Below, in pieces: positions 2,045 through 14,092 of a stretch of 26,007 nt of DNA. The first letter of the stretch is position 1; every line of letters starts with the position of its first letter. The DNA is from Omnitrophica WOR_2 bacterium RIFCSPLOWO2_12_FULL_51_8 (GTDB lineage Bacteria > Omnitrophota > Gorgyraeia > Gygaellales > Profunditerraquicolaceae): positions 1 to 26,007 of the forward strand of contig MHHD01000008.1 of the NCBI GenBank assembly GCA_001805895.1, given 5' to 3'. Made by a program: the position numbers and the translations under genes. The notes under the pieces were generated by a model, which saw only the letters and a program-made list of their open reading frames with translations, was not told where the DNA came from and ran no database searches.

Positions 2045-2392
2045 TTATTTCTTGGCTATTTCAACGAGCTTTTTAAATGCCGCGCTGTCTCTCACTGCCA
2101 AGTCTGCGAGGATTTTCCTGTCTAAGCCGACCTTGGCTTTTTTGAGGCCGTTCATAAAAACGCTGTAAGTGACCCCTGTCTCCCTGCAGGCGGCATTGAT
2201 GCGGCTGATCCAGAGCCGGCGGAAGGCGCGCTTTTTATTGCGCCGGTCGCGATAAGCGTATTTGAGCGCGTGCATCAGTGCGCGGCGCGCCTGCTGGAAC
2301 TGCTTGCTGCGGTCGCCCCAGAAACCCTTGGCTTTTTTTAATACCTTCTTCTTTCTCCTGCGCGTTGCGGCGCTGTGTTTGATTTTTGCCAT
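2045..2392 (-). CDS. rplT: 50S ribosomal protein L20
   Basis: KKAKGFWG...[23 protein letters not shown]; AAGGAG RBS; follows rpmI. Confidence 0.98.
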
Positions 2393-2409
2393 TGTAACTC
2401 CTTATTTTA

Positions 2410-2565
2410 GGTTACTAAAGGTTACTATACAATAAGTAAAATTGCGGTTTTGTTACTAAGGGTTACTATTGGTTGCTAAAATGCCTGCCGGCATAAGGTA
2501 ACTGTTAGTAACTAAGATACGTTATTTTAACTCGCTTTAGTAACCATTAGTAACTATTGGTAACC
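2410..2565. repeat. Hairpin element with 10-bp periodic arms (GGTTACTAAN / NTTAGTAACY)
   Basis: Units at 2410, 2420, 2451, 2461, 2471; inverted units at 2536, 2546, 2556. 2410-2419 is the exact reverse complement of 2536-2545. Confidence 0.8.
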
Positions 2566-2572
2566 TTGATAT

Positions 2573-2773
2573 TCACCCATACGGCAGCATCCGTTTGATA
2601 TATTGCGCTGCCTTGCCTCCGGCTAAGGTATGCCGCCTTCTTAAAGCCCGCAGCCTCTCCGGCTGCTTAGAGGTATTTAAGTGGCTCTTGCCGCCCGGCG
2701 AATATTTCACCTTGCCTTTCTTGCTCAGCTTGAATCTTTTAGCGACTCCTTTTTTGGTTTTGAGTTTAGGCAT
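2573..2773 (-). CDS. rpmI: 50S ribosomal protein L35
   Basis: MPKLKTKKGVAKRFK...MLPYG; lies between infC and rplT. Confidence 0.97.
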   Translation of the reverse strand: MPKLKTKKGVAKRFKLSKKGKVKYSPGGKSHLNTSKQPERLRALRRRHTLAGGKAAQYIKRMLPYG

Positions 2774-2779
2774 CTTTAC

Positions 2780-2826
2780 CCTTCATAGTTAATGAACACC
2801 GGCCAATCCTATATGGCCGGGTGTTA
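2780..2826. repeat. AACACC(C)GGCCA inverted-repeat element, short copy
   Basis: Left 28 nt match 20695-20722 at 26/28; right 16 nt are identical to 20770-20785. Confidence 0.8.
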
Positions 2827-3330
2827 TTTCGGCGCTACTACGAATGACATTATCCTGCCTTCCATCGACGGGCCGCGTTCCACCTGCCCGTCATTCTGGG
2901 TATCCAGGATAAATTTATCTAGAATTTTTCTCCCCAGGTCCTGGTGCTCCATCTGCCGGCCGCGGAAGAAAAGGTTGATTTTTACTTTGTCTTTTTTCTT
3001 TAAGAAGGATACCGCCTGTTTCAGCTTGGTTGCGTAGTCGTGGCTGTCGATATTGGGCTTCAGCCGGATTTCCTTGAGCCGGCTCTGCTTCTGGTGTTTC
3101 TTGGCCTCGCGCTCTTTTTTTTCCTGGTCGTATTTAAACTTGCTGAAGTCAATAATCCGGCAGACCGGCGGGCTGGCAGCGGGAGCGACCTCCACCAGGT
3201 CCAGTTCGCTCTGGCTGGCTAATTCCAGCGCCTGCTGGATGGGCACTACCCCCAATTGATTACCTTCCGAACCGATCAGCCTTACCTGCGGGACGCGAAT
3301 CCTTTCATTAGTGCGGATAAACTTTTTTAT
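2824..3330 (-). CDS. infC: Translation initiation factor IF-3, probable non-canonical ATA start
   Basis: RTNERIRVPQVRLIG, PPVCRIIDFSKFKY, KEIRLKPNIDSHDY. GGAGG lies 6 nt upstream of ATA (3330); the track's ATG at 3396 adds a non-homologous extension. Confidence 0.93.
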   Translation of the reverse strand: MKKFIRTNERIRVPQVRLIGSEGNQLGVVPIQQALELASQSELDLVEVAPAASPPVCRIIDFSKFKYDQEKKEREAKKHQKQSRLKEIRLKPNIDSHDYATKLKQAVSFLKKKDKVKINLFFRGRQMEHQDLGRKILDKFILDTQNDGQVERGPSMEGRIMSFVVAPK

Positions 3331-3348
3331 GGCACACCTCCTCAATGA

Positions 3349-3435
3349 GCCCGCCATAGTTCTTTGGCGGGCGAATTGATCCCGCGAGTGCGCCAAAATT
3401 ATCGTAGAGAATTTTGGCGCGGTTACGAGCGGGAT
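3349..3435 (-). promoter_or_regulatory. Two hairpins in the thrS-infC spacer (candidate cis-regulatory leader or REP-like repeats)
   Basis: Perfect 8-bp stem GCCCGCCA/TGGCGGGC (3349-3372) just upstream of the infC RBS; 11-bp stem GCGCCAAAATT/AATTTTGGCGC (3390-3420) with an outer ATCCCGC/GCGGGAT stem. Confidence 0.4.
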
Positions 3436-3445
3436 AGATATTCCC

Positions 3446-5188
3446 CTAGCCCATAGGCTTTATTTCTTCCAAGATCTTTTTTACAAACTCCCCTGCTGCT
3501 ATCGTGCCCAAATCGCCTTTTCCTTTTTTGCGCACAGAAACCGTTCCTTGTTTCTCCTCGCGCTCGCCCACCACTAAACAATAAGGAATTTTTTCCAACT
3601 CGGCGAGGCGGATTCTCTTATTTAAAGTTTCATTACGGCTATCCACCTCGGCCCGGATTAAATTATCCCGTAAAACCCCCTGAATATCCACTGCGTATTT
3701 TACGAAGGCATCTGCCACAGGGATCACCACTGCCTGCACCGGCGCCAGCCACAACGGCAGCTCACCGTTATAATGCTCCAATAGCGCCCCGATAAACCTT
3801 TCTAAGCTGCCGAGCAGTACCCGATGCAGCATAATTGGCTGCTGCTTACTGCCATCGGCAGCGATATAGGCCAGATCAAATCTTTTGGGCAGGGCAAAAT
3901 CGCACTGGATCGTCGCGCACTGCCACGACCTTTTCAAGGCGTCCTTTAATTTGACGTCGATCTTTGGCCCGTAAAAGGCGCCTTCGCCGGCATTCACCGC
4001 ATAAGCGAGGTTTTTTTCCTTGAGCGCATCCTCCAGCGCTGCGGTCGCACGCTGCCAGTCGTCCGCAGTGCCGATATATTTTTCCGGCCGGGTGCTTAAT
4101 TCTATACCGACCTCCGTAAAACCAAACGCACGCATGACCTCAAAAACAAAATCTATAATCCCTTTTATCTCTTGGCCCAGCTGCTCAGGCAAACAAAAGA
4201 TGTGCGCGTCATCCTGGGTAAAGCCGCGCACGCGCAGCAGGCCATGCAGCACCCCGGCCTTTTCATTCCGGTAGACCGTGCCCAGCTCAAAGAGCCGCAG
4301 CGGCAAATCCTTGTAACTTCTGGTCTGCGATCTGTAAATCAGGATGTGGCCCGGGCAGTTCATCGGCTTTAAAACGAATTCCTTGCCTTCGATATCCAAG
4401 GCGTACATATTCTCGCGGTAATATTCATAGTGGCCGCTCTTCTTCCAGAGCCCGGCCTGCATAAGATGCGGGGTAATCACCATCTGGTAGCCGCGTTTTA
4501 AGTGTTCCTCTTTCTCGTAATCCTCGATCAACGTGCGCAGCAACGCGCCCTTAGGGCGGTAAAACACCAGGCCCGCCCCCGCCTCTTCATGATAAATATC
4601 AAAGAACCCTAATTGCGGCCCCAGTTTCCGGTGGTCGCGCTTTTTTGCCTCTTCCAGATTTTTTAAATATTCCTCTAATTCTTTTTTGCCGGCAAAGGCC
4701 GTGCCGTAAATCCGCTGCAGCATGGGGTTAGTTTCTATCCCGTGCCAGTAGGCCCCGGCCACGGACAATAATTTAAAGGCCTTGATTTCTCCGGTAGAGC
4801 GGATATGCGGGCCGCGGCAAAGGTCCACAAAATCGCTGCCCGTTTTATAAATGGATACTCTCTCATCAGGAATTGCCTTGATTAAATCTATCTTGTAATC
4901 TTCGTTTAATTGCCGAAATAATTCCAGGGCCTCTTGCTTAGTTAATTCTTCCCGCACAAACGGCTTATCCGCCTGAATAATCTCGCGCATCTTCGCTTCT
5001 ACCTTGGCCAGATCCTCGTCGGAAAATGGCTCCTTTTTGCCTGCACTGAGCGCAGCCGAAGTGTCGAAGTCATAATAAAATCCATCTTCGATAGAAGGGC
5101 CAATGCCCAGCTTGGCTTCAGACCATAAGCCCTTTACTGCTTCAGCCATCACATGCGCACAGGAATGTCGTAAGATATCTAAGTCCAC
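3446..5188 (-). CDS. thrS: Threonine--tRNA ligase (short form without N-terminal TGS domain)
   Basis: RHSCAH editing motif, DLCRGPH, KPMNCP, RVRGFTQDDAH, FYGPKID, QCDF; GTG start. Confidence 0.98.
   Translation of the reverse strand: MDLDILRHSCAHVMAEAVKGLWSEAKLGIGPSIEDGFYYDFDTSAALSAGKKEPFSDEDLAKVEAKMREIIQADKPFVREELTKQEALELFRQLNEDYKIDLIKAIPDERVSIYKTGSDFVDLCRGPHIRSTGEIKAFKLLSVAGAYWHGIETNPMLQRIYGTAFAGKKELEEYLKNLEEAKKRDHRKLGPQLGFFDIYHEEAGAGLVFYRPKGALLRTLIEDYEKEEHLKRGYQMVITPHLMQAGLWKKSGHYEYYRENMYALDIEGKEFVLKPMNCPGHILIYRSQTRSYKDLPLRLFELGTVYRNEKAGVLHGLLRVRGFTQDDAHIFCLPEQLGQEIKGIIDFVFEVMRAFGFTEVGIELSTRPEKYIGTADDWQRATAALEDALKEKNLAYAVNAGEGAFYGPKIDVKLKDALKRSWQCATIQCDFALPKRFDLAYIAADGSKQQPIMLHRVLLGSLERFIGALLEHYNGELPLWLAPVQAVVIPVADAFVKYAVDIQGVLRDNLIRAEVDSRNETLNKRIRLAELEKIPYCLVVGEREEKQGTVSVRKKGKGDLGTIAAGEFVKKILEEIKPMG
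5039..5062 (-). repeat. 24-bp REP-like insertion in frame inside thrS (encodes TSAALSAG)
   Basis: Minus-strand ACTTCGGCTGCGCTCAGTGCAGGC; its first 20 nt match intergenic 15003-15022 at 15/20; it interrupts YYDFD/KKEPF. Confidence 0.65.
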
Positions 5189-5392
5189 TTTACTTTTCGG
5201 AGTCTCTCAACGGTTTTTTTCAGTCGGAAAGTATCTGCAGAAATATTTTTCCCTTTCATCTTATTAAGAGTCTACCACCATTTGCCAAGCAGCCCTAAAC
5301 CGCGCACTAGAAGTTTGTCTCTGCCAGAATTTGATATCCCAGCTGCGATCGGCCTTTTCCAAAGGAACTATTCTTTCCCAAATTTTTCTCAT
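5179..5392 (-). pseudogene. Frameshifted small protein resembling partners of DUF6036-type nucleotidyltransferases
   Basis: MRKIWERIVPLEKADRSWDIKFWQRQTSSARFRAAWQMVVDS then TAA at 5264-5266. Removing one base restores YKMKGKNISADTFRLKKTVERLRKVKWT* ending at 5179. Family resemblance is from recall. Confidence 0.5.
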
Positions 5393-5417
5393 CGTAGCCC
5401 TACCTCAGTCTGTCTGC

Positions 5418-5504
5418 TGAAAGGCGAAGCAGGACATTCTACCTTCAACTACCGCAATTCCTGCGAAGCCATACCTTAGTTTTTCTCGTTGAAAGGCGAA
5501 GCAG
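5418..5504. repeat. 15-bp direct repeat TGAAAGGCGAAGCAG, 72 bp apart, at the tRNA-Val 3' end
   Basis: Exact copies at 5418-5432 and 5490-5504. Confidence 0.6.
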
Positions 5505-5506
5505 AA

Positions 5507-5583
5507 TGGTGGGCCCAAGAGGACTTGAACCTCTGGCCTTTGCGATGTCAACGCAACGCTCTAACCAGCTGAGCTATGAGCCC
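5507..5583 (-). tRNA. tRNA-Val(GAC), CCA encoded
   Basis: GGGCTCA/TGGGCCC acceptor stem, TTGCG-TTGACAT-CGCAA anticodon arm, GGTTCAAGTCC T arm. Confidence 0.97.
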
Positions 5584-5602
5584 ACAATCCAAAAAGTTTT
5601 AC

Positions 5603-5935
5603 CTAATGCTGCCGGCGCGCGGCATAGGCAAAAGGCAAAAAATACCTCCTCCAGGATGCGTCGCTGGAGCCAAACTGATTTGCGCCGGCAAAAAAATCCA
5701 CCAGCGCCTCGCGCATCCGGGCAATCTCTTTGCGCCGGGCTAAGCCCCTTGTGCTGTCTAAAGTTAAATCCGTAAGTTCCAGCGCCCGCGCAAACGCCTG
5801 CCGGCTGTAATCAGAATCCTGCTTTGCCTTCCAGTTCAAAGCCCGCTCTACTTCGCTGCCAATGTTGGCCATCTGTTCCATAAACGGCATTTTGCCCCAT
5901 CTTCCCGCGGCAAGCTCCTTATGCTGCTGGCTCAT
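5603..5935 (-). CDS. Conserved hypothetical helical protein (110 aa), partner of DUF5674 protein
   Basis: GRW...MEQMANIGSEVERA motif; 4-nt overlap with the upstream ORF. Confidence 0.75.
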   Translation of the reverse strand: MSQQHKELAAGRWGKMPFMEQMANIGSEVERALNWKAKQDSDYSRQAFARALELTDLTLDSTRGLARRKEIARMREALVDFFAGANQFGSSDASWRRYFLPFAYAARRQH

Positions 5936-6273
5936 CCTTTAATCCGTCTGTTAATGACCTCAATGACCTTCTGGCGCACGCCTGCGTCATCCACGCCGCG
6001 GCTGCTATTGCCCTGAGAGGGACGCAGATTTATCAAGGAATCAAATTCTATATAGTCATCGCCTTGCTTTTCCGGATAAAGGTTAATCCCCCAAAGGCTT
6101 TTTTGTTTTGAGCCGTCTTCCAAAAGCAACGCTTCCAAATCAGAATGAAGCTCGGCATCAAGCGCAAGCAGGCCCCTCTCAACATCCACAACCGCTTTAA
6201 CTAAGTTCCCAAACATATTCGCGGCCATCTGCTTAAGCTCGTCGTTGCTTATTATCTCAGTGATGATTTTCAT
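5932..6273 (-). CDS. DUF5674-like protein (113 aa)
   Basis: VKAVVDV...DAELHSDLEALLLEDGSKQ..LWGINLYP...IEFDSLINLRPSQGN pattern recognised from recall. Confidence 0.75.
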   Translation of the reverse strand: MKIITEIISNDELKQMAANMFGNLVKAVVDVERGLLALDAELHSDLEALLLEDGSKQKSLWGINLYPEKQGDDYIEFDSLINLRPSQGNSSRGVDDAGVRQKVIEVINRRIKG

Positions 6274-6276
6274 AAG

Positions 6277-6456
6277 CTATAGAAAAAACGGCGCAGATAC
6301 TGCCGCTAATTTCTTCTGTTTCCTGATTAATTTCCTGTTGATGACATATTTTAAATTTAAAGTAACAAAGTTTAGATAATCGCTCATTGACAACTGCTTT
6401 GCGGCAGGAGGCGCCCCTTGCATAATAGGCAATCTTAGCTTCTCTTCTTTTGGCAT
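6277..6456 (-). CDS. 59-aa basic protein, probable partner of the nucleotidyltransferase
   Basis: MPKEEKLRLPIMQGAPPAAKQLSMSDYLNFVTLNLKYVINRKLIRKQKKLAAVSAPFFL*. Starts 1 nt after the NTase stop and ends 3 nt before the DUF5674 ATG. Below the ORF-track cutoff. Confidence 0.7.
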   Translation of the reverse strand: MPKEEKLRLPIMQGAPPAAKQLSMSDYLNFVTLNLKYVINRKLIRKQKKLAAVSAPFFL

Positions 6457-6457
6457 T

Positions 6458-6994
6458 TCAAGTCCTTTCCAATATTTTCCGGTAAAGTTCTTCTGTGCCG
6501 TACTGTAAACAAAGGGTTTTAAAGGCGCCTGTCTGGGCGTCCACTTTATTAACTCTGATCAATTCTATAATATCCGCCAGATCTTTATACTCGCGGATGC
6601 CAGGATTATACTTGATGGCATGCAACTTCAGTGCGATTAAATGATTAAGGCACGGCACGAGAAATTTTTGACCCGCGATATTAGCCTCTTTTGCCTCCTT
6701 AATAATTTTATCTAACGTCTCCCTATCCACAAACATGAAATCAATGTCCCAAAAAAATGGCTTTTCTGCCGACAGCCGGACAAATACCTCCTGCCCATAA
6801 TCCTGCTTAAACCCCTCTTTTTCTAACCGGCTGGCTATTTTGTCAAAATCGTCTTTGGTGATTAAGAAATCTACATCTGCAGTCTGGCGTGTTACCTTAT
6901 GGAAATTCACTGCAAAACCACCGATTAAAACATAAGGTATTTTTTCTTTGCCGCAGACAGCAGAAATTAGATGAAACACGCTTGGGTATTTCAT
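6458..6994 (-). CDS. Nucleotidyltransferase (Pol-beta superfamily, DUF6036/AbiEii-like)
   Basis: IGGFAV...RQTADVD and LIALKLHA...KDLADI motifs. Confidence 0.82.
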   Translation of the reverse strand: MKYPSVFHLISAVCGKEKIPYVLIGGFAVNFHKVTRQTADVDFLITKDDFDKIASRLEKEGFKQDYGQEVFVRLSAEKPFFWDIDFMFVDRETLDKIIKEAKEANIAGQKFLVPCLNHLIALKLHAIKYNPGIREYKDLADIIELIRVNKVDAQTGAFKTLCLQYGTEELYRKILERT

Positions 6995-7050
6995 TTTGCC
7001 AAATTATTTATCTCAACGCCCCCTGCCTCATTTTTAATCCCTTCCGCAAA

Positions 7051-7085
7051 ATCCCAGGCCTTTAGGCCGAGGGGGCTCCACTTCA
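7051..7085. other. Small hairpin resembling an IS200/IS605-type end remnant
   Basis: ATCCCAGGCC-TTTA-GGCCGAGGG. Resemblance to IS605 subterminal hairpins is from recall; no transposase nearby. Confidence 0.3.
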
Positions 7086-7131
7086 TCGTTGTTTAATGTT
7101 GCGGTGATGATTTTCTAGAAGATCCATTTTC

Positions 7132-7207
7132 AGGGTTCGCGTCCACGACTACTCAAGGAAAAACTTACCTTACTTCTCTTCTGACGGTTCACCTAAAAAT
7201 CTGGCGG
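7132..7207. mobile_element. L element copy 4 (att-like cassette end)
   Basis: AGGGTTCGCGTCCAC-39 nt-GGTTCACCTAAAAATCTGGCGG; same 39-nt spacing as copies at 12577 and 13878. Confidence 0.85.
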
Positions 7208-7208
7208 C

Positions 7209-7361
7209 TTACTTCACCGCGTCTGGCGAAATGCGGACGGTTTTGCCGTTTTCCCATACCGCAAGCGGGCGGCCCGTCTTCTTATGCCGCTCCACAACTT
7301 GCCGCACCGCTTTTTTTAACGCCGCCTCTGCTTTATCCTGCAAAGACATCCGTTTTTTCAT
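7209..7361 (-). CDS. 50-aa basic partner of zeta-like ATPase
   Basis: MKKRMSLQDKAEAALKKAVRQVVERHKKTGRPLAVWENGKTVRISPDAVK*. ATGA overlap with the upstream gene; its stop abuts the L element. Confidence 0.78.
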   Translation of the reverse strand: MKKRMSLQDKAEAALKKAVRQVVERHKKTGRPLAVWENGKTVRISPDAVK

Positions 7362-7939
7362 TGATGCCTCGCGCTTTTTTGAACCGCCTCAAATAATTCC
7401 TTGTTAACAATCTCTCTATGCCAGTTCTTTCTTTTCGCAATCAATATAGGCCTTGCCTTTGAATTATCAAACAACATCCAAGAATCAAGCAAGGGATCAT
7501 ATAGATCGAAGAAATTATTAATTCCGCGGGTAAAACGCCTGCGCACATCTTCAGCAGGAACATAATGCCCGCCTTCTACAACCCTGTCTTTAATACGCGC
7601 GATTGCGAGTCCGGGGCTGGGGATCCAAAGAAAGAATAGATGCAGCGCGTAGCCTTTCTTTTTGAACTCCTCTAGCAAGCTTACGTAGGATTTACCGGAT
7701 AAAGTAGTTTCAAATGCAAAATCAACGCCCCGTTTCGCATATTCGTGTATTTGCTGCAATACGAGTTTGCCGGCTTTAATGGCGGCAGCGCGAGGCTCAA
7801 ACGGAGCTAATCCTTGAGCGATCAGGTCGGCATTGACAAAATTCGGACAATTCACGTAATCAGGTAAAAACATCCTGGCAAACGTCGTCTTGCCCGATCC
7901 GTTAGGTCCCGCAATAATGTAAACTGCCTTGTTATTCAT
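7358..7939 (-). CDS. Zeta-toxin-like P-loop ATPase/kinase
   Basis: IAGPNGSGKTT Walker A, VNADLIA, FAFETTLSG, RV..GGH.VP..DVRRR. Confidence 0.85.
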   Translation of the reverse strand: MNNKAVYIIAGPNGSGKTTFARMFLPDYVNCPNFVNADLIAQGLAPFEPRAAAIKAGKLVLQQIHEYAKRGVDFAFETTLSGKSYVSLLEEFKKKGYALHLFFLWIPSPGLAIARIKDRVVEGGHYVPAEDVRRRFTRGINNFFDLYDPLLDSWMLFDNSKARPILIAKRKNWHREIVNKELFEAVQKSARHQ

Positions 7940-7995
7940 AAGCGCCTTTACCGCTCAAGGAACTTTACCAGATATAATCGTAGAACTCGCCTGAG

Positions 7996-8151
7996 CGTCA
8001 ACAATGAGGGGTAGTCGTGGGGCAGGCTAACCCCCTACAACCCTTTGAGATACCGCTACTTATAAAAATTTATAAGAAACGCGGTGTGGGCTGGCAAATT
8101 TCTCTGGGCGAACCCATCAACCCTACCCTCCGCAAGAAAACGTGCCATTAA
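7996..8151. mobile_element. R element copy 3 (diverged)
   Basis: CGTCAACAATGA + GGGGTAGTCGTGG...CTTATAAAAATTTATAAG...GCGAACCCATC; colinear with copies at 9772 and 12650. Confidence 0.8.
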
Positions 8152-8164
8152 AAGCAAAGAATGA

Positions 8165-8362
8165 TTATCCAGTAGTAGATGGGATAAATCCAAATATCTT
8201 TGTCTTATCCTTTATTACGATTTTCTTTACCACAGCAACAATTTTAGTCCCATCGTTCTCAAAATATTCCAATTTATCCCCTGAAGATACTGCTCCACCG
8301 CTCACCGTCCCTTCAAAAACAATGCCCCTGCCATGAATCCCAAAAATATCCTTTACCTCCAT
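8165..8362 (-). CDS. 65-aa protein resembling EF-Tu domain II beta-barrel, possibly truncated
   Basis: EVKDIFGIHGRGIVFEGTVSGGAVSSGDKLE resembles the V.DVFSI.GRGTVVTG.V..G.V..GD.V pattern. Confidence 0.55.
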   Translation of the reverse strand: MEVKDIFGIHGRGIVFEGTVSGGAVSSGDKLEYFENDGTKIVAVVKKIVIKDKTKIFGFIPSTTG

Positions 8363-8384
8363 CCTGCTATTAATAGCATCCTAC

Positions 8385-8444
8385 AGGGTTCGCGTCCACT
8401 ACAACTCACGCCCAAAATAGCTATGGCTCTCGTCCGTCAACCTC
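8385..8444. mobile_element. L element copy 3 (right half degenerate)
   Basis: Exact AGGGTTCGCGTCCAC at 8385-8399; the right half is reduced to CGTCAACCT. Confidence 0.7.
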
Positions 8445-8455
8445 GCCGGAGAAGG

Positions 8456-9589
8456 TCATAACCATTGATCGAGATGCGTAACACAATCAACAAACGGCGC
8501 TATCTCAACGCCTCGGTCATGCCACCGGCGATGTCCGAGATAAAGCAGACAAGTCTTTGCTTCCTTAAAATCCTCGCGGAATCGCCGTAAGGCGCCGAAA
8601 TCATCGGGGCGGATCTTCTCAGCCATTTTGATTTCAAAAGCGCGCAAACCTCGTTCGCCATACAGCACAAAATCCACCTCATCCGCCGTGGCTGTCCGCC
8701 AGTAATGCAAGCGATACCCCAAATTTTTGTAGTCGTTGATAGCGCGCGCTTCCTGCAAAAAAAGGGTCTCGAGCGCCGCTCCGTGTATTTCTTCCGGGGC
8801 ATCCAGTGACCCGCGCGGGCGGATAGCCTGAAATACTCCGGTGTCGAAGTAATAAAACTTGGGGTGCGTAATGAGTCTCCGTTTGACGCGCTTGGTAAAA
8901 ACCGGCAGGCGGATGGCAATCAATAAATCCTCAAGAATGCTGAAATAGTCTTCGACGACTTTGGCCGACACGGCGCACTCGCGGGCCACGGCCGCCATAT
9001 TGAGCAATCCGCCTTGGGAAAAGCTGGCGGCTTCCAGAAAACGGCTGAAGGCGCTGAGGTTACGGGCGAATCCTTCTTGTTGGACCTCTTCGCGCAGATA
9101 GGTGGCAGCGTAACTTTTCAGATAACCTTCTGGCTTGGCGCTCGTACAGGCCAGCGGCAGACCACCGTAACGAAGGGCGCGTTTGAGATCAAAGTCCTTG
9201 CCCAATTCCAACGCTGTCAGGGGATGCATATGATACGTCAACGCACGACCTGCCAGCAAGTTAACACCGCGGCGGCGTAACTTGCGCGCGCTTGATCCGG
9301 TCAGCGCGAATTGTAAGCGCCGCGACTCAATTAAACGGTGCGCTTCATTCAGCAATTCCGGCACGCGTTGGACCTCATCTAGAACTACCCAGCCCTTGTA
9401 ATCCTGGGGAATTCTTTCTCCCAACCGTGTCGGTTCAGCCAGCAGCTCGCTATAGATCCGGTAATCCAGCAAATCAAAAAAGAGCGCTCTGGGAAATTGA
9501 TCGTGCAGCCAGGCGGTCTTGCCTACTCCGCGGGGCCCGAACAGAAAGAAGCTCTGCCGCCTAGGGGGTTTGAGCAATCGTGCATACAT
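8456..9589 (-). CDS. AAA_14 ATPase with C-terminal DUF4143-like domain
   Basis: FGPRGVGKT, LDEVQ, LTGSSAR, LAGRA, KFYYFDTG, EVDFV...FEIK. Confidence 0.88.
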   Translation of the reverse strand: MYARLLKPPRRQSFFLFGPRGVGKTAWLHDQFPRALFFDLLDYRIYSELLAEPTRLGERIPQDYKGWVVLDEVQRVPELLNEAHRLIESRRLQFALTGSSARKLRRRGVNLLAGRALTYHMHPLTALELGKDFDLKRALRYGGLPLACTSAKPEGYLKSYAATYLREEVQQEGFARNLSAFSRFLEAASFSQGGLLNMAAVARECAVSAKVVEDYFSILEDLLIAIRLPVFTKRVKRRLITHPKFYYFDTGVFQAIRPRGSLDAPEEIHGAALETLFLQEARAINDYKNLGYRLHYWRTATADEVDFVLYGERGLRAFEIKMAEKIRPDDFGALRRFREDFKEAKTCLLYLGHRRWHDRGVEIAPFVDCVTHLDQWL

Positions 9590-9771
9590 AAGTCTTTTTT
9601 ATCATAAAAAAATGACTTGTCAAGTAATTTTTACATAATCTATCAAAGGCATTCTTTTCTTCTATTGCCCCATTTTTAACAAACTACTGCATTAATTTTG
9701 ACTGCTGTCAAATTTACTCGCAAGTAAATTTCCCTGTCCACGCAACGCCCCACGCCCTCTACTTGGCCACT

Positions 9772-9960
9772 CGTCAACAATGACGGGTAGTCGTGGACGA
9801 AAGTCGAACCCTGCAACCCATTGAGATACCGTTACTTATAAAAATTCATAAGAAACATGGTGTGGGCTGGCTAATCGCCCTAGACGAACCCATCTTCAAT
9901 AAACCTACAAAAACCAAAGAACCGACAAACCCAGAGCCATACTGCGACTATGTTATTTAG
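9772..9960. mobile_element. R element copy 2
   Basis: CGTCAACAATGA + CGGGTAGTCGTGGACG-n5-CGAACCCT...; 177 nt colinear without gaps with 12650-12826. Confidence 0.85.
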
Positions 9961-9986
9961 CTTGACCTTTAATCTAGGTTAGAAAT

Positions 9987-10988
9987 TTATTTATACAACC
10001 TCAACTCCATCTGACTACTCTCAATCTTTACTGCGTCACAACCATCCTTTAGTAAATCACGATAAAGCTCCTTTATGACATCCTTTTCAGTGCCTTCGTC
10101 AACGAACCTCAACGCAGAAGCAGCAAGATATGTCCTGTCTTTCTCAAACGCAATCCACTTGCGGTCAAGGACCTCGGCAGCCTCGCCAGACGTATTAGAA
10201 CCAGCAAAAAAATCCAGCACCAAATCCCCAGGGGCAGTCAAAAACTTAATGAAAAACTCAGGAAGCTGCCTTGGAAACCTTGCAGGATGAGGATCGGCAC
10301 CGACAAGCTTGCAAAAACGCAAATACTTAGAATTGCTCTCCGAATTGGAAATCTGCAAAAGATTAGAAGGAATAGCACCCCCATTCCCGTTAGGAATCCC
10401 AAAACTCTTAGAAATATTATGCCCAGAAGGACGCTCCTTCGGTGTATAAAACTTCTCGCTATTCTTCAACAACTCCTTCATGCGCTCAGAATACGGAACC
10501 AACACCCTCGAAACATCGGCATTAGGAAACTCCGACTTAGAAAACCACCAGACAGTATTCACCGAATCCTTAGCCCTAATCTTCCTCTTATTCACCCACT
10601 CAATCGGCGATGGCAGCTTAGACGGGTTATGCCAAAAAAACTCCTCAGCCAAGAAAAAGCCAAGCTCGTCACAAAAACGCACAAGTACCCTGAAATTATA
10701 AAGTGACCTAGTCGGCCTGCCCTTCTCGTAAGCACCACCCAAATCCAAAACAAAACTCCCATCTTCCCTCAACACCCTAAAGACTTTCCTGCCAAAAGCC
10801 ATCAACCAATCAACATAATCCTCCTGAGACTCATTCCCATACTCCTTCTTGCGCTGCAAGGCAAAGGGCGGGGAAGTTACCACCAGATTAACGCTGTCCG
10901 CAGCAAGGCAATCAAGAAGCTCCAGCGAATCACCCACAAACGCCCTGCCATGCTTCGTCTTATATACTGGAACAGGCAAATTACTCAT
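9987..10988 (-). CDS. Site-specific DNA methyltransferase, beta class, probably N4-cytosine, M.PvuII-like
   Basis: TSPPFALQRKKEYGN (motif IV), NPSKLPSPIEWVNKRKIR, HPARFP, DFFAGSNT (motif I). ATG at 10988 preferred over the track's TTG at 11015. Confidence 0.92.
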   Translation of the reverse strand: MSNLPVPVYKTKHGRAFVGDSLELLDCLAADSVNLVVTSPPFALQRKKEYGNESQEDYVDWLMAFGRKVFRVLREDGSFVLDLGGAYEKGRPTRSLYNFRVLVRFCDELGFFLAEEFFWHNPSKLPSPIEWVNKRKIRAKDSVNTVWWFSKSEFPNADVSRVLVPYSERMKELLKNSEKFYTPKERPSGHNISKSFGIPNGNGGAIPSNLLQISNSESNSKYLRFCKLVGADPHPARFPRQLPEFFIKFLTAPGDLVLDFFAGSNTSGEAAEVLDRKWIAFEKDRTYLAASALRFVDEGTEKDVIKELYRDLLKDGCDAVKIESSQMELRLYK

Positions 10989-11022
10989 GACAAAAAAATC
11001 CTCTCCTCTAACCAAGCCGGGC

Positions 11023-12477
11023 TCAATATATTTCGAGGTTGCCGACCCAACTCGAAAGAATCTTCCACAAAACAGTCACGGCAAAATAAACCTCTTTATC
11101 CTTATCCTTCAAGTCTTCAATCTCGGCGACAAGCTTCTCCTGCTTCTGCGTGCCAACAACCCAGGCAACCCACTTCCTCGCCCCATCATCAGCCATGACA
11201 GAAAGTAAATCCTTGACAGAGAAATTTCCGCTCTTGCTTAAAGCCCATGAAATACCGGCTCTCACATCCTCGCTCCCCTTCGGAAAATACTTGATGATTT
11301 CCTTGCCGAACAAGCCGGAAAGCCTAAACAAAGCACGGGCAGACTCAGACCGCACACCCAAATCAATATCATCAAAGACAGAAACCAAGGCGTCAAGCGC
11401 AACCTTGTTCTTAAGCTCGCCCAAAGCCCAGGCAGCACCAGCCCTGATCTCTGAATGCTGAGCCTTATCAAGCAAGACTTCGATTAGAAGTCTGCATGAG
11501 ACATCGCTACAAATTTCTCCAAGAATAATCACACACTCCAAACGATTCTCCAAATATTCATCAGCCAAAACAGACTTAAAGAAATCTACGCTGTCACTAA
11601 AGCCCATCTTCAAAAGGCTAGCCGCAGCCTCCAAACGGATATATATGTGGTCTCTTGCGTCGCCAGTCTTCTTGACCAGGGCTCCATGAATATCCGCCCC
11701 CTTAAAAAACGACAACGCTTTTGCTGCGCCGTAGCGATCACTCAAAGAAGCGCTCCTAATCATCCTAACGTAATCCCTGGCTTCCATGCCCTTACCACAG
11801 TCAAAACTCGTCGAAACAGGAACGACGCTTGCCAAAATCTGATCTTCAACAAAAACGTCCCCAGCCTTCACAAGAGGCTTAAGTCTGATACCCTTCTTCT
11901 CCAAGGCAAGACTGATAAGCCTGCCATCACCTCTACGCTTTAATTTAAGCCGTTCCTTGCCAACCTCCACGACTTCGCCTGCGCAACTGGCAACTGCGCT
12001 AGGCCAGGTAATCCTTGCCTCAAAGCCCTCCTCAGTGCCCTTCGGTTTCTCCCAAAAAACCTTCTTGTCAACAACAGCAGCCCTCAAAGGCTTAGCCGAC
12101 ACATACTGAACAAACCCGGAAGCAGCCCAATCAACAGGCTCAGTCCCAATCTTGCTACACTTCACAAAAGCAACCATGTCGCCATCATCCAAACCAAAAT
12201 CCCATCCTCGCTCAGGACTGACAACGCTATGCGACATCGTCACAAGCAGCTTAGTCTTAGCCCTCGACTCAACCCTCCTGCCACAGCCAACGCATAAGAC
12301 ATCAGGAACTCGCACCCTCTTAATTTTGATTTCCTTCCAAATCTTAAAGCTCATACTGCCACGTTCAAGCTCAACAGGACGATGCCCAAGCCGCTTCAAA
12401 TCCTCAAAAACCCTCCTCGTGCCAGTAGCGCCAATAGAAATCTTTTCTAAAAAACTCACATCCGTCTTAAAAGCCAT
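11023..12477 (-). CDS. Putative restriction endonuclease: N-terminal PD-(D/E)xK-like region plus C-terminal HEAT repeats
   Basis: VPDVLC...VESRAK in the N terminus; repeated helical units (RYGAAKAL, RLEAAASL, RAGAAWALGEL, RSESARAL); directly upstream of the methylase. Confidence 0.6.
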   Translation of the reverse strand: MAFKTDVSFLEKISIGATGTRRVFEDLKRLGHRPVELERGSMSFKIWKEIKIKRVRVPDVLCVGCGRRVESRAKTKLLVTMSHSVVSPERGWDFGLDDGDMVAFVKCSKIGTEPVDWAASGFVQYVSAKPLRAAVVDKKVFWEKPKGTEEGFEARITWPSAVASCAGEVVEVGKERLKLKRRGDGRLISLALEKKGIRLKPLVKAGDVFVEDQILASVVPVSTSFDCGKGMEARDYVRMIRSASLSDRYGAAKALSFFKGADIHGALVKKTGDARDHIYIRLEAAASLLKMGFSDSVDFFKSVLADEYLENRLECVIILGEICSDVSCRLLIEVLLDKAQHSEIRAGAAWALGELKNKVALDALVSVFDDIDLGVRSESARALFRLSGLFGKEIIKYFPKGSEDVRAGISWALSKSGNFSVKDLLSVMADDGARKWVAWVVGTQKQEKLVAEIEDLKDKDKEVYFAVTVLWKILSSWVGNLEIY

Positions 12478-12576
12478 AACAAAAAAATCCTTTCTCTAAA
12501 AAGAAACGATGACCTTTTCAAAAAGTTTTCGTACTCAAGTTTTTATTTACACTCATAAGCATCTCTTTTCCAGCTC

Positions 12577-12826
12577 AGGGTTCGCGTCCACAATTACTGT
12601 GCGCAAAATTGCTTTTGCTTCTCGACGGATGGTTCACCTAAAAATCTGGCGGGTAGTCGTGGACGGTAGGCGAACCCTACAACCCCTTGAAATACCGTTA
12701 CTTATAAAAATTTATAAGAAACGCGGTATGGGTTGGCTCATCGCCCTAGACGAACCCATCTTCAATAAACCTGAAAAACCTAAAGAACCAAAACAGTTAG
12801 AGCCTAACTATAATTATGCCATCTAA
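12577..12826. mobile_element. Complete L|R junction (attP-like composite site)
   Basis: L copy 2 (12577-12652) fused to R copy 1 (12653-12826); GGTTCACCT (12631) and AGGCGAACC (12668) are inverted about the GT at 12653-12654. Confidence 0.85.
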
Positions 12827-12838
12827 CAGCATTTTGCC

Positions 12839-13279
12839 TTAAAAAAGTTCCTTAGAATTAACGTTATAATTGATCATCAGCCAAGAATCGCCATACTTCT
12901 TCAAAACAAAAGAATCTGTAGATTCGCCTTTTTCATGGATTACCGTATACTGAACGCTAAAATATACTCCATCTGGGGCATAGTTAAGTCGCCAAGCGCC
13001 CTTCTTCCGCTCCTTAGCAATACCTAATTTCCCCCAAACGCCGTTCATTATCTTATCAAAACTTTCGCGGGGGCCACTCTTTTTGAATTTTTCATCAGCC
13101 ATCGAATCAAACATGTAGCCAAAATCTTGTTTATTGTAATGGTCATAGAAGCTTGCAATGAATTTTTCAACAGATGGCGTGAATTTACTGGCATTTAAAA
13201 AGGCGAAGCCACCAAAAACAACAAATAAAATTATTATTACCAAAAACGTAATTCCTAGACCAATAAAGAATTTCTTCAT
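12839..13279 (-). CDS. Membrane-anchored hypothetical protein (146 aa)
   Basis: N-terminal hydrophobic helix, then a soluble alpha/beta domain ending in SFVLKKYGDSWLMINYNV; GGAGG RBS. Confidence 0.75.
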   Translation of the reverse strand: MKKFFIGLGITFLVIIILFVVFGGFAFLNASKFTPSVEKFIASFYDHYNKQDFGYMFDSMADEKFKKSGPRESFDKIMNGVWGKLGIAKERKKGAWRLNYAPDGVYFSVQYTVIHEKGESTDSFVLKKYGDSWLMINYNVNSKELF

Positions 13280-13292
13280 TCTTGCACCTCCT

Positions 13293-13859
13293 CTATTTAT
13301 TCCGCAGATCGTTTACTATTTGGTAAACTTTTTCTGCATCTTTAATATCGTAAAAGGTCGGAACATCCTTCCCATAGAATGACGCAAAAAAATCCATACC
13401 GGTATTTTCATACATGCCCACCATAAATGAAGGGTTGCCAAATTTAACGGCACCTATTCCATTCGATCGAACGCTCTTGTTAATACACGGCAAAGTATTA
13501 ATGTATGCCGCTTGGATGTTTTCACCAAATAAGCTGGTCACAATTAATACTCGCTTATCAGTTACGGCATACCATGTTCTTTGCTTCTTCCACTTTTTAT
13601 AAAAAAATCTCCCAAAGATAGAATACAGGCCAATTAATACAAATGGGATACCAAATAACGCAAAAAATATTGGCGCGCCTTGCCCTGCCTTGTCCTTCAT
13701 AAAAAGGACAGAGGACTCCCAAAATATGGCGAACCCTCCCCACAATAAACTAAAAGGCACAAGAAAAACGTCAGACGCAGAAAACAGGATATTTGCTTCC
13801 GGCTGGCCTTTCCATAAAATTGATTCATCTTTTAGCAATTGCTTTTGCAGAACATCCAT
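13293..13859 (-). CDS. Two-TM membrane protein with bacterial PH-like C-terminal domain (188 aa)
   Basis: E.ILWKGQP, two TM helices, YAVTDKRVLI. ATG at 13859 preferred because the track's GTG at 13892 lies inside the L element. Confidence 0.75.
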   Translation of the reverse strand: MDVLQKQLLKDESILWKGQPEANILFSASDVFLVPFSLLWGGFAIFWESSVLFMKDKAGQGAPIFFALFGIPFVLIGLYSIFGRFFYKKWKKQRTWYAVTDKRVLIVTSLFGENIQAAYINTLPCINKSVRSNGIGAVKFGNPSFMVGMYENTGMDFFASFYGKDVPTFYDIKDAEKVYQIVNDLRNK

Positions 13860-13877
13860 ATAATTAACCCTTTCTCT

Positions 13878-13955
13878 AGGGTTCGCGTCCACGACAACCT
13901 AAGCAAAAAACGCAAGCGGCTGTCGTCGGACGGTTCACCTCAAAAACTGGCGGGT
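13878..13955. mobile_element. L element copy 1, joined to a tRNA-like half-site
   Basis: AGGGTTCGCGTCCAC-39 nt-GGTTCACCTCAAAAACTGGCGGGT. Confidence 0.85.
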
Positions 13956-14001
13956 TATTAGGGATTCGAACCCTCTCGCCTGCGCCAAAGATCTTTTCAA
14001 A
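13948..14001 (-). pseudogene. tRNA-like 3' fragment (T arm, acceptor strand, CCA) directly downstream of tRNA-Leu
   Basis: Minus strand: TTTGAAA-AGATC-14 nt-GAGGGTTCGAATCCCTA-ATAACCC-G-CCA; no matching 5' half. Confidence 0.55.
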
Positions 14002-14085
14002 TGCCGGGGGAGGGATTTGAACCCTCACACTCTTACGAGCGGCGGATTTTAAGTCCGCATTGTCTGCCAGTTCCAACACCCCGGC
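14002..14085 (-). tRNA. tRNA-Leu(TAA), CCA not encoded
   Basis: GCCGGGG/CCCCGGC acceptor stem, GCGGA-CTTAAAA-TCCGC anticodon arm, long variable arm, GAGGGTTCAAATCCCTC T arm. Confidence 0.97.
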
Positions 14086-14092
14086 AAAAATA

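What the first reader, a model, noticed from the sequence alone, without database searches (positions are those of the whole stretch)
12631..13972. Half-site geometry matches the attP/attB 5-bp shift of large serine recombinases
Seen: around a central GT, the outer GGTT/AACC motif lies 22 nt away in the L right halves (L1, L2) and R left halves (R1, R2), but 17 nt away in the tRNA-like half (13956-13972) and in all four inverted L-start sites. So 12631-12676 is 22/22 and 13932-13972 is 22/17. Established: in large serine integrases the zinc-ribbon-domain motif is 5 bp closer to the centre in attB than in attP; Bxb1 sites show this around a GT core. Inference: 12653 is an attP-like tandem junction and 13954 a hybrid attL/attR. 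Caveat: a GG centre 2 bp away also fits the local palindrome at R2.
Basis: partly seen in the sequence, partly recalled or inferred. Interest (0 to 1): 0.8.

Follow-up and report, generated by a model that had tools for sequence, protein, structure and literature searches.

The report
Serine-integrase docking sites at tRNA end
The two sites are real attachment sites of a family of large serine integrases that insert at the very 3' end of tRNA genes in Omnitrophota. The element-side arm imitates the tRNA T-loop five base pairs further out, but the crossover lies in CGG rather than the proposed GT, and no matching integrase is in this genome.

Summary
GGTT-N18-GT-N18-AACC occurs only at 12631-12676 and GGTT-N18-GT-N13-AACC only at 13932-13972, each about 0.03-0.04 expected by chance.

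The serine-integrase reading is largely right. It rests on relatives rather than on that symmetry:
- In about 40 related Omnitrophota genomes, full-length large serine recombinase (LSR) genes end exactly at TGG|CGG and read into antisense tRNA-Ser or tRNA-Ala.
- The same genes carry a second arm that imitates the tRNA.
This is the 5-bp shift described for A118-type integrases.
- Remnants of LSR 3' ends are fused in frame to R in several genomes.

Corrections:
- The only bases shared by all junction types are CGG (12650-12652, 13951-13953), so the centre is probably GG, not GT.
The sites are therefore 18/23 and 18/18, not 22/22 and 22/17.

By descent, 12650 is a cassette-to-cassette (P-P') junction and 13951 a P-B' junction on a tRNA relic. 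No cognate LSR was found in this 63%-complete genome.

This scan has met the family before on other DNA. My limited literature searches found no description of it.

The parts
12577..12649 (+). It is the right end of the methylase/HEAT cassette. Its last 19 nt (12631-12649, GGTTCACC...CTGG) form the left arm of the junction site.
   Evidence: Repeat families. The L end is conserved in 23 copies from relatives, with GGTTCA starting 19 or 18 nt before CGG.
12650..12652 (+). CGG core of the cassette-cassette junction, and the inferred crossover region (GG 12651-52 most likely).
   Evidence: CGG is the only sequence shared by the left and right junctions of cassettes and by the LSR-linked sites.
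12653..12826 (+). The P'-type arm (12653-12676) mimics a tRNA acceptor/T-arm with 5 extra bp. It is followed by a conserved open frame (RVVVDGRRTLQP...) that ends at 12826.
   Evidence: CGAAC ends 23 nt after CGG in 33/33 distinct copies. The frame is open over 42 codons in 31/37 copies, while the other two frames are closed in 36-37. LSR 3' remnants are fused in frame to it.
12839..13279 (-). Cargo gene 1 of the 1.3-kb cassette (146 aa, weak DUF4019 match).
13293..13859 (-). Cargo gene 2 (188 aa from the in-frame ATG at 13859; no family match).
   Evidence: An 87%-identical DNA copy sits in another genus in a different context.
13878..13950 (+). It is the right end of the 1.3-kb cassette; left arm 13932-13950.
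13951..13953 (+). CGG core of the cassette-tRNA junction. It is the complement of acceptor bases 71-72 plus the discriminator of the tRNA relic.
13954..13990 (-). tRNA 3' relic (T arm, acceptor strand ATAACCC, G, then CCA inside the L end). This is the B'-type arm, with CGAAC ending 18 nt from CGG.
   Evidence: Sequence read. ARAGORN and Rfam do not call it. All 36 tRNA arms in relatives share the same spacing.
14001..14086 (-). tRNA-Leu(taa), immediately upstream of the relic in tRNA sense.
7132..7207 (+). Its CGG (7205-7207) is followed by an unrelated cassette (zeta-toxin-like gene).
8005..8183 (+). It is preceded by the second end type ...GAGCGTCAACAATGA|GGG.
   Evidence: The same end type (GAGCGTCAACAATGG|CGG) abuts R in three other genomes and tRNA-Ser(gga) in G069.
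8385..8446 (+).
9784..9960 (+). It is preceded by ...CGTCAACAATGA|CGG.

Best explanation
The stretch 12631-13972 is one recombinase-less gene cassette (R arm, two small genes, L arm). It lies in a stack of such cassettes docked on the 3' end of a tRNA relic.

Its two boundaries are attachment sites of a family of large serine recombinases, widespread in Omnitrophota, that integrate at the 3' end of tRNA genes, mostly tRNA-Ser.

Shown:
- Exchange happens inside CGG, the complement of acceptor bases C71-C72 plus discriminator G73.
- On the tRNA side, the host arm is the acceptor/T-arm itself.
- The element arm (start of R) is a tRNA look-alike whose T-loop-like motif sits exactly 5 bp further from the core.

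Inferred:
- The integrase zinc-ribbon domain reads this motif at about bp 12-19 on the tRNA arm (attB mode) and about bp 17-24 on the R arm (attP mode).
- The staggered cut is at GG (12651-52, 13952-53). GG is non-palindromic, which would fix the single orientation seen for all cassettes.
- The cassettes were inserted, one in front of the other next to the tRNA, by an integrase supplied in trans. Each insertion leaves L|tRNA as a fresh target.

By descent, 12650 is a P-O-P' tandem junction and 13951 a P-O-B' junction. The integrase is not encoded in the window and was not found in this incomplete genome. The array may be currently immobile.
For: (1) Cognate enzyme in relatives. A fragment carrying the R peptide (P0026) has upstream LSR C-terminal sequence. 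In 234 genomes of the same order it matched about 40 full-length 480-593-aa frames that end at the W|R (TGG|CGG) point. One of these has Resolvase, Recombinase and Zn_ribbon_recom domains and matches the SPbeta and A118 integrases.

(2) These genes end ...TGG|CGG|AGAGG and run into antisense tRNA-Ser, or TGG|TGG into tRNA-Ala.

(3) A complete element in G091 has a left junction of terminator flank|TGGTGG|tRNA-mimic arm and a right junction of LSR 3' end|TGGTGG|tRNA-Ala. This defines B, P', P and B'. G127 has the same layout.

(4) Invariant spacing. CGAAC ends 18 nt after CGG in 36/36 tRNA arms, 23 nt in 12/12 LSR-linked mimic arms, and 23 nt in 33/33 R copies. The published model puts the motif at bp 16-24 versus 11-19.

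(5) R is joined in frame to LSR 3' remnants in P0026, P0008, P0041, L098 and several phylum-level hits.

(6) At least 10 single cassettes in other genomes have flank|CGG|R...L|CGG|tRNA-Ser. Empty tRNA-Ser genes show terminator...A|CGG|AGAGG.

(7) Core identity is only 3 bp.

(8) The repeats are 77-91% identical across families in which thrS DNA is 66-73% identical or barely alignable.
Against: - No LSR of this family is in the window or in the 936-kb, 63%-complete assembly. Its two LSRs sit at tRNA-Gln and tRNA-Leu(cag); the one compared, on contig C75 at tRNA-Gln, is only about 25% identical, and neither was hit in the P0026 search.
- No full-length LSR fused to R was found in about 630 Omnitrophota genomes, only remnants.
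- The L arm shows no clear homology to the LSR 3' end that serves as the P arm in integrase-bearing elements.
- From CGG the L arm has the short (attB-like) spacing. A free cassette would therefore carry a short/long site, which in the canonical model resembles an inert attL.
- Laying public contigs from four runs showed no excision or circle joints.
- The tRNA relic has an acceptor strand unlike tRNA-Ser.
- No recombination has been observed directly.
Confidence: 0.7

Rival explanations
1. L is not a cassette end but the host's own trailer behind tRNA-Ser, that is, the B arm. On this reading 13932-13972 is an unoccupied, symmetric attB (18-CGG-18) and 12631-12676 is an attL (short/long). The extra L copies would come from duplicated tRNA-Ser loci.
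For: Measured from CGG, L|tRNA is symmetric and L|R is short/long. L lies directly behind intact tRNA-Ser genes in many genomes. In G019 no R was detected by either the DNA or the peptide query.
Against: - In single cassettes L sits where the P arm must be (flank|R...L|tRNA). The left flank is an ordinary terminator, as at empty tRNA-Ser genes.
- Tandem L|R junctions without any tRNA occur in the window and in G051, G032, L080 and L090.
- Empty tRNA-Ser sites lack L.
Confidence: 0.12
2. The array is a fossil. Integrase-bearing elements inserted repeatedly, their integrase genes were then deleted, and L and R are decaying scars with no present function.
For: No cognate LSR was found here. Several L and R copies are degenerate, for example 8385 and the ends at 8004 and 9783. 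No joints were seen.
Against: - The arm spacing and the first 25 nt of R are invariant in 33 distinct copies across families.
- The repeats are better conserved than thrS.
- One public contig holds a near-identical L|R junction followed by different DNA.
Confidence: 0.1
3. The array is a tyrosine-recombinase system: integron-like attC sites, or a tRNA island of the tycheposon kind.
For: Co-oriented, promoter-less-looking cassettes behind a strong promoter. L plus the R start can be drawn as an imperfect hairpin with a 5-nt bulge.
Against: - The only tyrosine recombinase found in the genome is a Xer-like 297-aa frame on another contig.
- Shared core is only 3 bp, and no tRNA segment is duplicated.
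- Homologous sites abut LSR genes in about 40 genomes.
- The palindrome inside R is not conserved.
Confidence: 0.03

Closest known systems
Attachment sites of phage-type large serine integrases (A118/LI, Bxb1, phiC31, SPbeta)
   Same: - The family enzyme has Resolvase, Recombinase and zinc-ribbon domains.
- The core is very short.
- The outer motif is 5 bp further from the centre on the element arm than on the host arm, at about bp 17-24 versus 12-19, as in the LI model.
   Different: - The target is the extreme 3' end of a tRNA gene.
- Only the tRNA-side arm carries a conserved motif. The other arm is a terminator flank, the integrase's own 3' coding end, or L.
- The integrase frame runs across the crossover.
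- Integrase-bearing members keep a spare inverted copy of attP.
- Here the sites bound integrase-less cassettes stacked in tandem.
Integron cassette arrays (IntI, attI, attC)
   Same: Small, co-oriented, mostly promoter-less cassettes, including toxin-antitoxin and restriction-modification genes, stacked at one fixed entry point.
   Different: No IntI, no attC-type R/L boxes and no G|TT exchange. The site is a double-stranded LSR-type site on a tRNA end, and the linked enzyme family is a serine recombinase.
Tycheposons and other tRNA-anchored tandem islands (tyrosine integrases)
   Same: Tandem cargo modules, some without a recombinase, at tRNA 3' ends (named from my own knowledge and from the abstract listed).
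   Different: Those duplicate a stretch of the tRNA and use tyrosine recombinases. Here nothing beyond CGG is duplicated and the linked enzyme is an LSR.
Integration-dependent immunity phages (attP inside a coding gene, so integration changes a protein's C-terminus)
   Same: The crossover lies inside an open frame, so the protein's tail differs between the joined and integrated states (from my own knowledge, not checked here).
   Different: There it is a repressor gene and a tyrosine integrase. Here it is the serine integrase's own gene, and any function of the tail is untested.

Membership tests
Large serine recombinase attachment sites | A recombinase with Resolvase, Recombinase and zinc-ribbon domains is linked to the site | tested here: inconclusive
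   Met in relatives: about 40 full-length LSR frames end at the homologous TGG|CGG. Not met in the window or in the own 63%-complete assembly, whose two LSRs are of other kinds.
Large serine recombinase attachment sites | Exchange at a 2-bp centre, so very little identity is shared between partner sites | tested here: met
   Only CGG is common to the left and right junctions of at least 10 cassettes, to empty tRNA-Ser sites and to LSR-linked sites. The exact dinucleotide is not resolved.
Large serine recombinase attachment sites | Outer (zinc-ribbon) motif 5 bp closer to the centre in host arms than in element arms | tested here: met
   On the tRNA side, CGAAC ends 18 nt after CGG in 36/36 tRNA arms and 23 nt after it in 12/12 plus 33/33 element arms. 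The model is quoted from PMC3783163. On the other side there is no consistent motif; L has the short spacing.
Large serine recombinase attachment sites | Each site is an imperfect inverted repeat about the centre | tested here: inconclusive
   L|tRNA is symmetric (18-CGG-18). L|R is 18-CGG-23. LSR 3' end|mimic arm shows no symmetry.
Large serine recombinase attachment sites | Demonstrated attP x attB recombination | not testable with these tools
   Public contigs laid on the array showed no joints at the sites.
Integron (attC/attI with IntI) | IntI-type tyrosine recombinase beside the array | tested here: not met
   Pfam scans of the window ORFs found none. The only Phage_integrase hit above the cut-off in the genome is a 297-aa Xer-like frame on contig C79.
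Integron (attC/attI with IntI) | attC with R''/L''-L'/R' boxes and exchange at G|TT | tested here: not met
   The junction reads CTGG|CGG|GTAG and has no GTTRRRY box at the boundary.
Tyrosine-integrase tRNA islands | Direct repeat of a tRNA 3' segment (overlap of 6-8 bp or more) at both ends | tested here: not met
   Left and right junctions share only CGG.

The most novel reading that the evidence does not exclude
This would be a serine-integrase counterpart of the integron. Integrase-less cassettes each carry a tRNA-mimic arm (R) and an arm (L) that, once inserted, rebuilds a symmetric target with the tRNA. Cassettes can then be stacked serially behind a tRNA-Ser promoter.

In addition, in integrase-bearing members the recombinase gene is cut by its own crossover. 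The conserved 58-aa R-encoded tail would be attached only in the joined (attP) state and could tune activity or direction.
Probability: 0.25. Interest if true: 0.8.

Novelty: new variant of a known kind. Interest (0 to 1): 0.6.

Why it matters
- It gives a natural, many-fold replicated example of the 5-bp zinc-ribbon shift that separates attP from attB in serine integrases. Here it is written into a tRNA and its mimic.
- It ties the recombinase-less cassette stacks seen behind tRNA-Ser genes in Omnitrophota to a concrete enzyme family.
- If the cassettes are moved in trans, this is a gene-capture platform built on serine rather than tyrosine recombination.
- Its short, well-defined sites (tRNA end plus mimic) would be easy to test and possibly useful as orthogonal integrase/site pairs.

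Tried and rejected
- **GT as crossover:** rejected. tRNA-Ser junctions read CGG|AG and LSR-linked mimic arms read CGG|TG.
- **Cognate LSR in the own genome:** not found. The C75 LSR (at tRNA-Gln) is about 25% identical and has no inverted 3'-end copy. The C18 LSR lies beside tRNA-Leu(cag).
- **L as a decayed copy of the LSR 3' end:** a MAFFT alignment gave no convincing homology beyond TGGCGG.
- **Second end type (...GAGCGTCAACAATGG) as a long-spacing left arm:** the outer GGTTCG is present in only 2-3 copies and absent in G069, so this was dropped.
- **R as a known protein domain or RNA:** no Pfam family even at E<=10. Rfam finds only the three tRNAs.
- **The 28-nt palindrome in R as a conserved hairpin:** it is not conserved in relatives, while the peptide frame is.
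- **Full-length LSR fused to R:** none in about 630 genomes, only remnants. The best case, P0026, is cut by a contig end.
- **Public runs:** only low-depth Logan contigs were available. No joints appeared at the sites.
- **Literature:** three searches found the A118/LI model but no description of this family.

Full report
**Naming.** L is the 78-nt element that starts AGGGTTCGCGTCCAC and ends ...GGTTCACCTAAAAATCTGG. R is the roughly 179-nt element that starts GTAGTCGTGGACGGTAGGCGAACCC. All genes of the array lie on the minus strand. "LSR sense" below means the window's plus strand.

**The observation.**
- GGTT-N18-GT-N18-AACC matches only 12631-12676, and GGTT-N18-GT-N13-AACC only 13932-13972. 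Shuffles expect 0.03 and 0.04.
- L occurs at 7132, 8385, 12577 and 13878. R occurs at 8005, 9781 and 12647. None occurs elsewhere in the 936-kb assembly.
- The L start is an inverted copy of the R start lacking 5 nt.
- On the minus strand, 13990-13949 reads as a tRNA 3' part: T arm, acceptor strand, G, CCA. It sits directly after tRNA-Leu(taa) and is not called by ARAGORN or Rfam.

**What surrounds it.** Between tRNA-Val (5507) and tRNA-Leu (14001) lie co-oriented small gene sets:
- a nucleotidyltransferase with DUF5674;
- a zeta-toxin-like gene;
- a DUF4143 ATPase;
- an N4/N6 methylase with a HEAT-repeat protein;
- two small unknown ORFs.

No recombinase is among them. The assembly holds one Xer-like tyrosine recombinase and two LSRs. 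The LSRs sit at tRNA-Gln and beside tRNA-Leu(cag). The one compared, at tRNA-Gln, is only about 25% identical to the family described below.

**Relatives.**
- L and R recur in 10 of 60 relatives from several families of the same order. Record titles name Candidatus Omnitrophota for most.
- L lies directly behind intact tRNA-Ser genes, reading ...CTGG|CGG|AGAGG. CGG is the complement of acceptor C71-C72 plus the discriminator.
- The common unit is flank|CGG|R, cargo, L|CGG|tRNA-Ser. It is seen in at least 10 genomes, with tandem L|CGG|R junctions in several.
- Flanks left of R are unrelated. They are often terminator hairpins, with or without TGG (an encoded CCA), exactly as at empty tRNA-Ser genes in the same loci.

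**R carries an open frame, and that frame leads to the enzyme.**
- One plus-strand frame of R is open for 42 codons in 31 of 37 distinct copies. The other two frames are closed in 36-37. Third codon positions vary most, and one copy has an in-frame 15-nt insertion.
- A search of 1.84 billion representative proteins found 42 hits. Nearly all are short ORFs with the peptide at the C-terminus and unrelated N-termini.
- Three hits (P0026, P0008, P0041) have upstream sequence that proved to be the C-terminal region of large serine recombinases.
- With P0026 as query, 102 of 234 genomes of the order matched. About 40 of the matches are full-length 480-593-aa frames that align up to the W|R point, that is TGG|CGG.
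- One such protein has Resolvase, Recombinase and Zn_ribbon_recom domains and matches the SPbeta and A118 integrases.

**Anatomy of the integrase-bearing elements.**
- The LSR gene ends ...TGG|CGG and continues into antisense tRNA-Ser. A sub-family ends TGG|TGG and runs into tRNA-Ala.
- Just upstream of the gene lies an inverted copy of its last 94-130 bp. This copy is joined through the same CGG to a tRNA-like arm.
- In G091 and G127 the whole element is visible. From left to right it reads: terminator flank|TGGTGG|mimic arm plus about 415 nt; 6-8 kb of cargo; the inverted copy; the LSR; and then LSR end|TGGTGG|tRNA-Ala.
- This layout fixes which arms are B, P', P and B'.
- Earlier notes of this scan describe the same spare inverted attP on other DNA. 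I saw it independently.

**Geometry.**
- Counting from CGG, CGAAC ends at nt 18 in 36/36 tRNA arms.
- It ends at nt 23 in 12/12 mimic arms of integrase-bearing elements, whose inner sequences differ widely.
- It ends at nt 23 in 33/33 distinct R copies.
- With GG of CGG as the central dinucleotide, the 8-nt motif occupies bp 12-19 on the tRNA and bp 17-24 on the mimic.
- Rutherford et al. 2013 place the zinc-ribbon motif at bp 11-19 in attB and bp 16-24 in attP (PMC3783163).

**The centre.** The bases after CGG are AG (tRNA-Ser), TG (mimic arms) and GT (R and the relic here). The bases before CGG are TGG in element arms and anything in host flanks. Exchange must therefore lie within CGG. GG is common to the Ser and Ala sub-families and is non-palindromic, which fits the single orientation of all cassettes. 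CG is not excluded. GT is excluded for the tRNA-Ser events.

**The left arm.** The L end is conserved in 23 copies, with GGTTCA starting 19 or 18 nt before CGG. This is the short spacing. L|tRNA is thus symmetric (18-CGG-18) and L|R is 18-CGG-23. Host flanks and the LSR 3' end show no such motif.

The family seems to put its specificity in the tRNA-side arm. The canonical long/long versus short/short picture holds on that side only. How a short/long L|R site would escape the self-inhibition proposed for attL-like sites is unexplained.

**Interpretation.**
- The cassettes lack an integrase and would need one in trans. None was found here, so present mobility is open.
- Points in favour of a living system:
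  - the arms are invariant;
  - the repeats are better conserved than thrS (85, 77 and 83% against 73, 69 and 66% in three relatives);
  - a public contig carries a near-identical L|R junction followed by different DNA.
- Points against: degenerate copies in the window, and no joints in the contigs laid.

**Novelty.** The enzyme class and the 5-bp rule are known. Three things appear undescribed in my three literature searches: the tRNA 3'-end target with a tRNA-mimic arm, the integrase frame crossing its own site, and integrase-less cassette stacks. The scan has met the family repeatedly.

Noticed in passing
window 12650-12826, 9784-9960, 8008-8150: R keeps one open plus-strand frame (RVVVDGRRTLQPLEIPLLIKIY.KRGMGW...), conserved in 31/37 copies from many genomes. 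In several genomes it is fused in frame behind remnants of an LSR C-terminus, so an integrase reading across the joined site would gain a 58-aa tail.
   Followed up: partly
L072 (G091:C3) rc 4015-12890; L073 (G127:C3) rc 2360-13240; L041, L048 and others: Integrase-bearing relatives keep a spare, inverted copy of the whole attP region: 94-130 bp of the LSR 3' end plus the mimic arm, and about 415 bp more in G091 and G127 (100% identical arms in G127). The LSR gene and the cargo are therefore each bracketed by long inverted repeats.
   Followed up: partly
window 7985-8004 and 9768-9783; L081, L082, L102; L118 (G069:C47) 3070-3105: A second cassette end type, ...GAGCGTCAACAATGG|CGG, abuts R in the window (degenerate) and in three other genomes. 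It abuts tRNA-Ser(gga) directly in G069. In the window these cassettes (zeta-like toxin, DUF4143 ATPase) sit between an L and an R.
   Followed up: partly
window 7134/7186, 12579/12631, 13880/13932: Each L has two GGTTC[GA]C motifs in the same orientation exactly 52 nt apart. Between them is a hairpin whose stem (GTCCACGAC / GTCGTCGGAC) is kept while its inside varies between copies and genomes.
   Followed up: no
own genome contig C75 971-2592 and C18 50-1459: The genome's two other LSRs also sit at tRNA genes. The C75 frame runs into antisense tRNA-Gln(ctg) from its CCA end, and the C18 gene lies beside tRNA-Leu(cag).
   Followed up: partly
window 13293-13874; L118 (G069:C47) 1364-1945: The 188-aa cargo gene has an 87%-identical DNA copy in another genus. 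There it is not flanked by L or R but by a roughly 20-nt inverted repeat (AGGGCGCTGCCC.TAATTC).
   Followed up: no
window 12578-12791 (public run X7, one 1538-nt contig): A contig from another groundwater sample matches L copy 3 plus the first 140 nt of R with 3 differences. It then continues for 1.3 kb into sequence unlike the window, which suggests the same junction with another cargo.
   Followed up: no
window 8168-8362 (-): The 0.45-kb cassette holds a roughly 64-aa ORF. By eye it resembles an EF-Tu domain-2-like beta barrel. This was not tested.
   Followed up: no
whole assembly: ARAGORN finds 16 tRNA genes and a tmRNA in the 79 contigs, and none is a tRNA-Ser. The tRNA-Ser loci, the usual docking sites, may be unassembled.
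   Followed up: no
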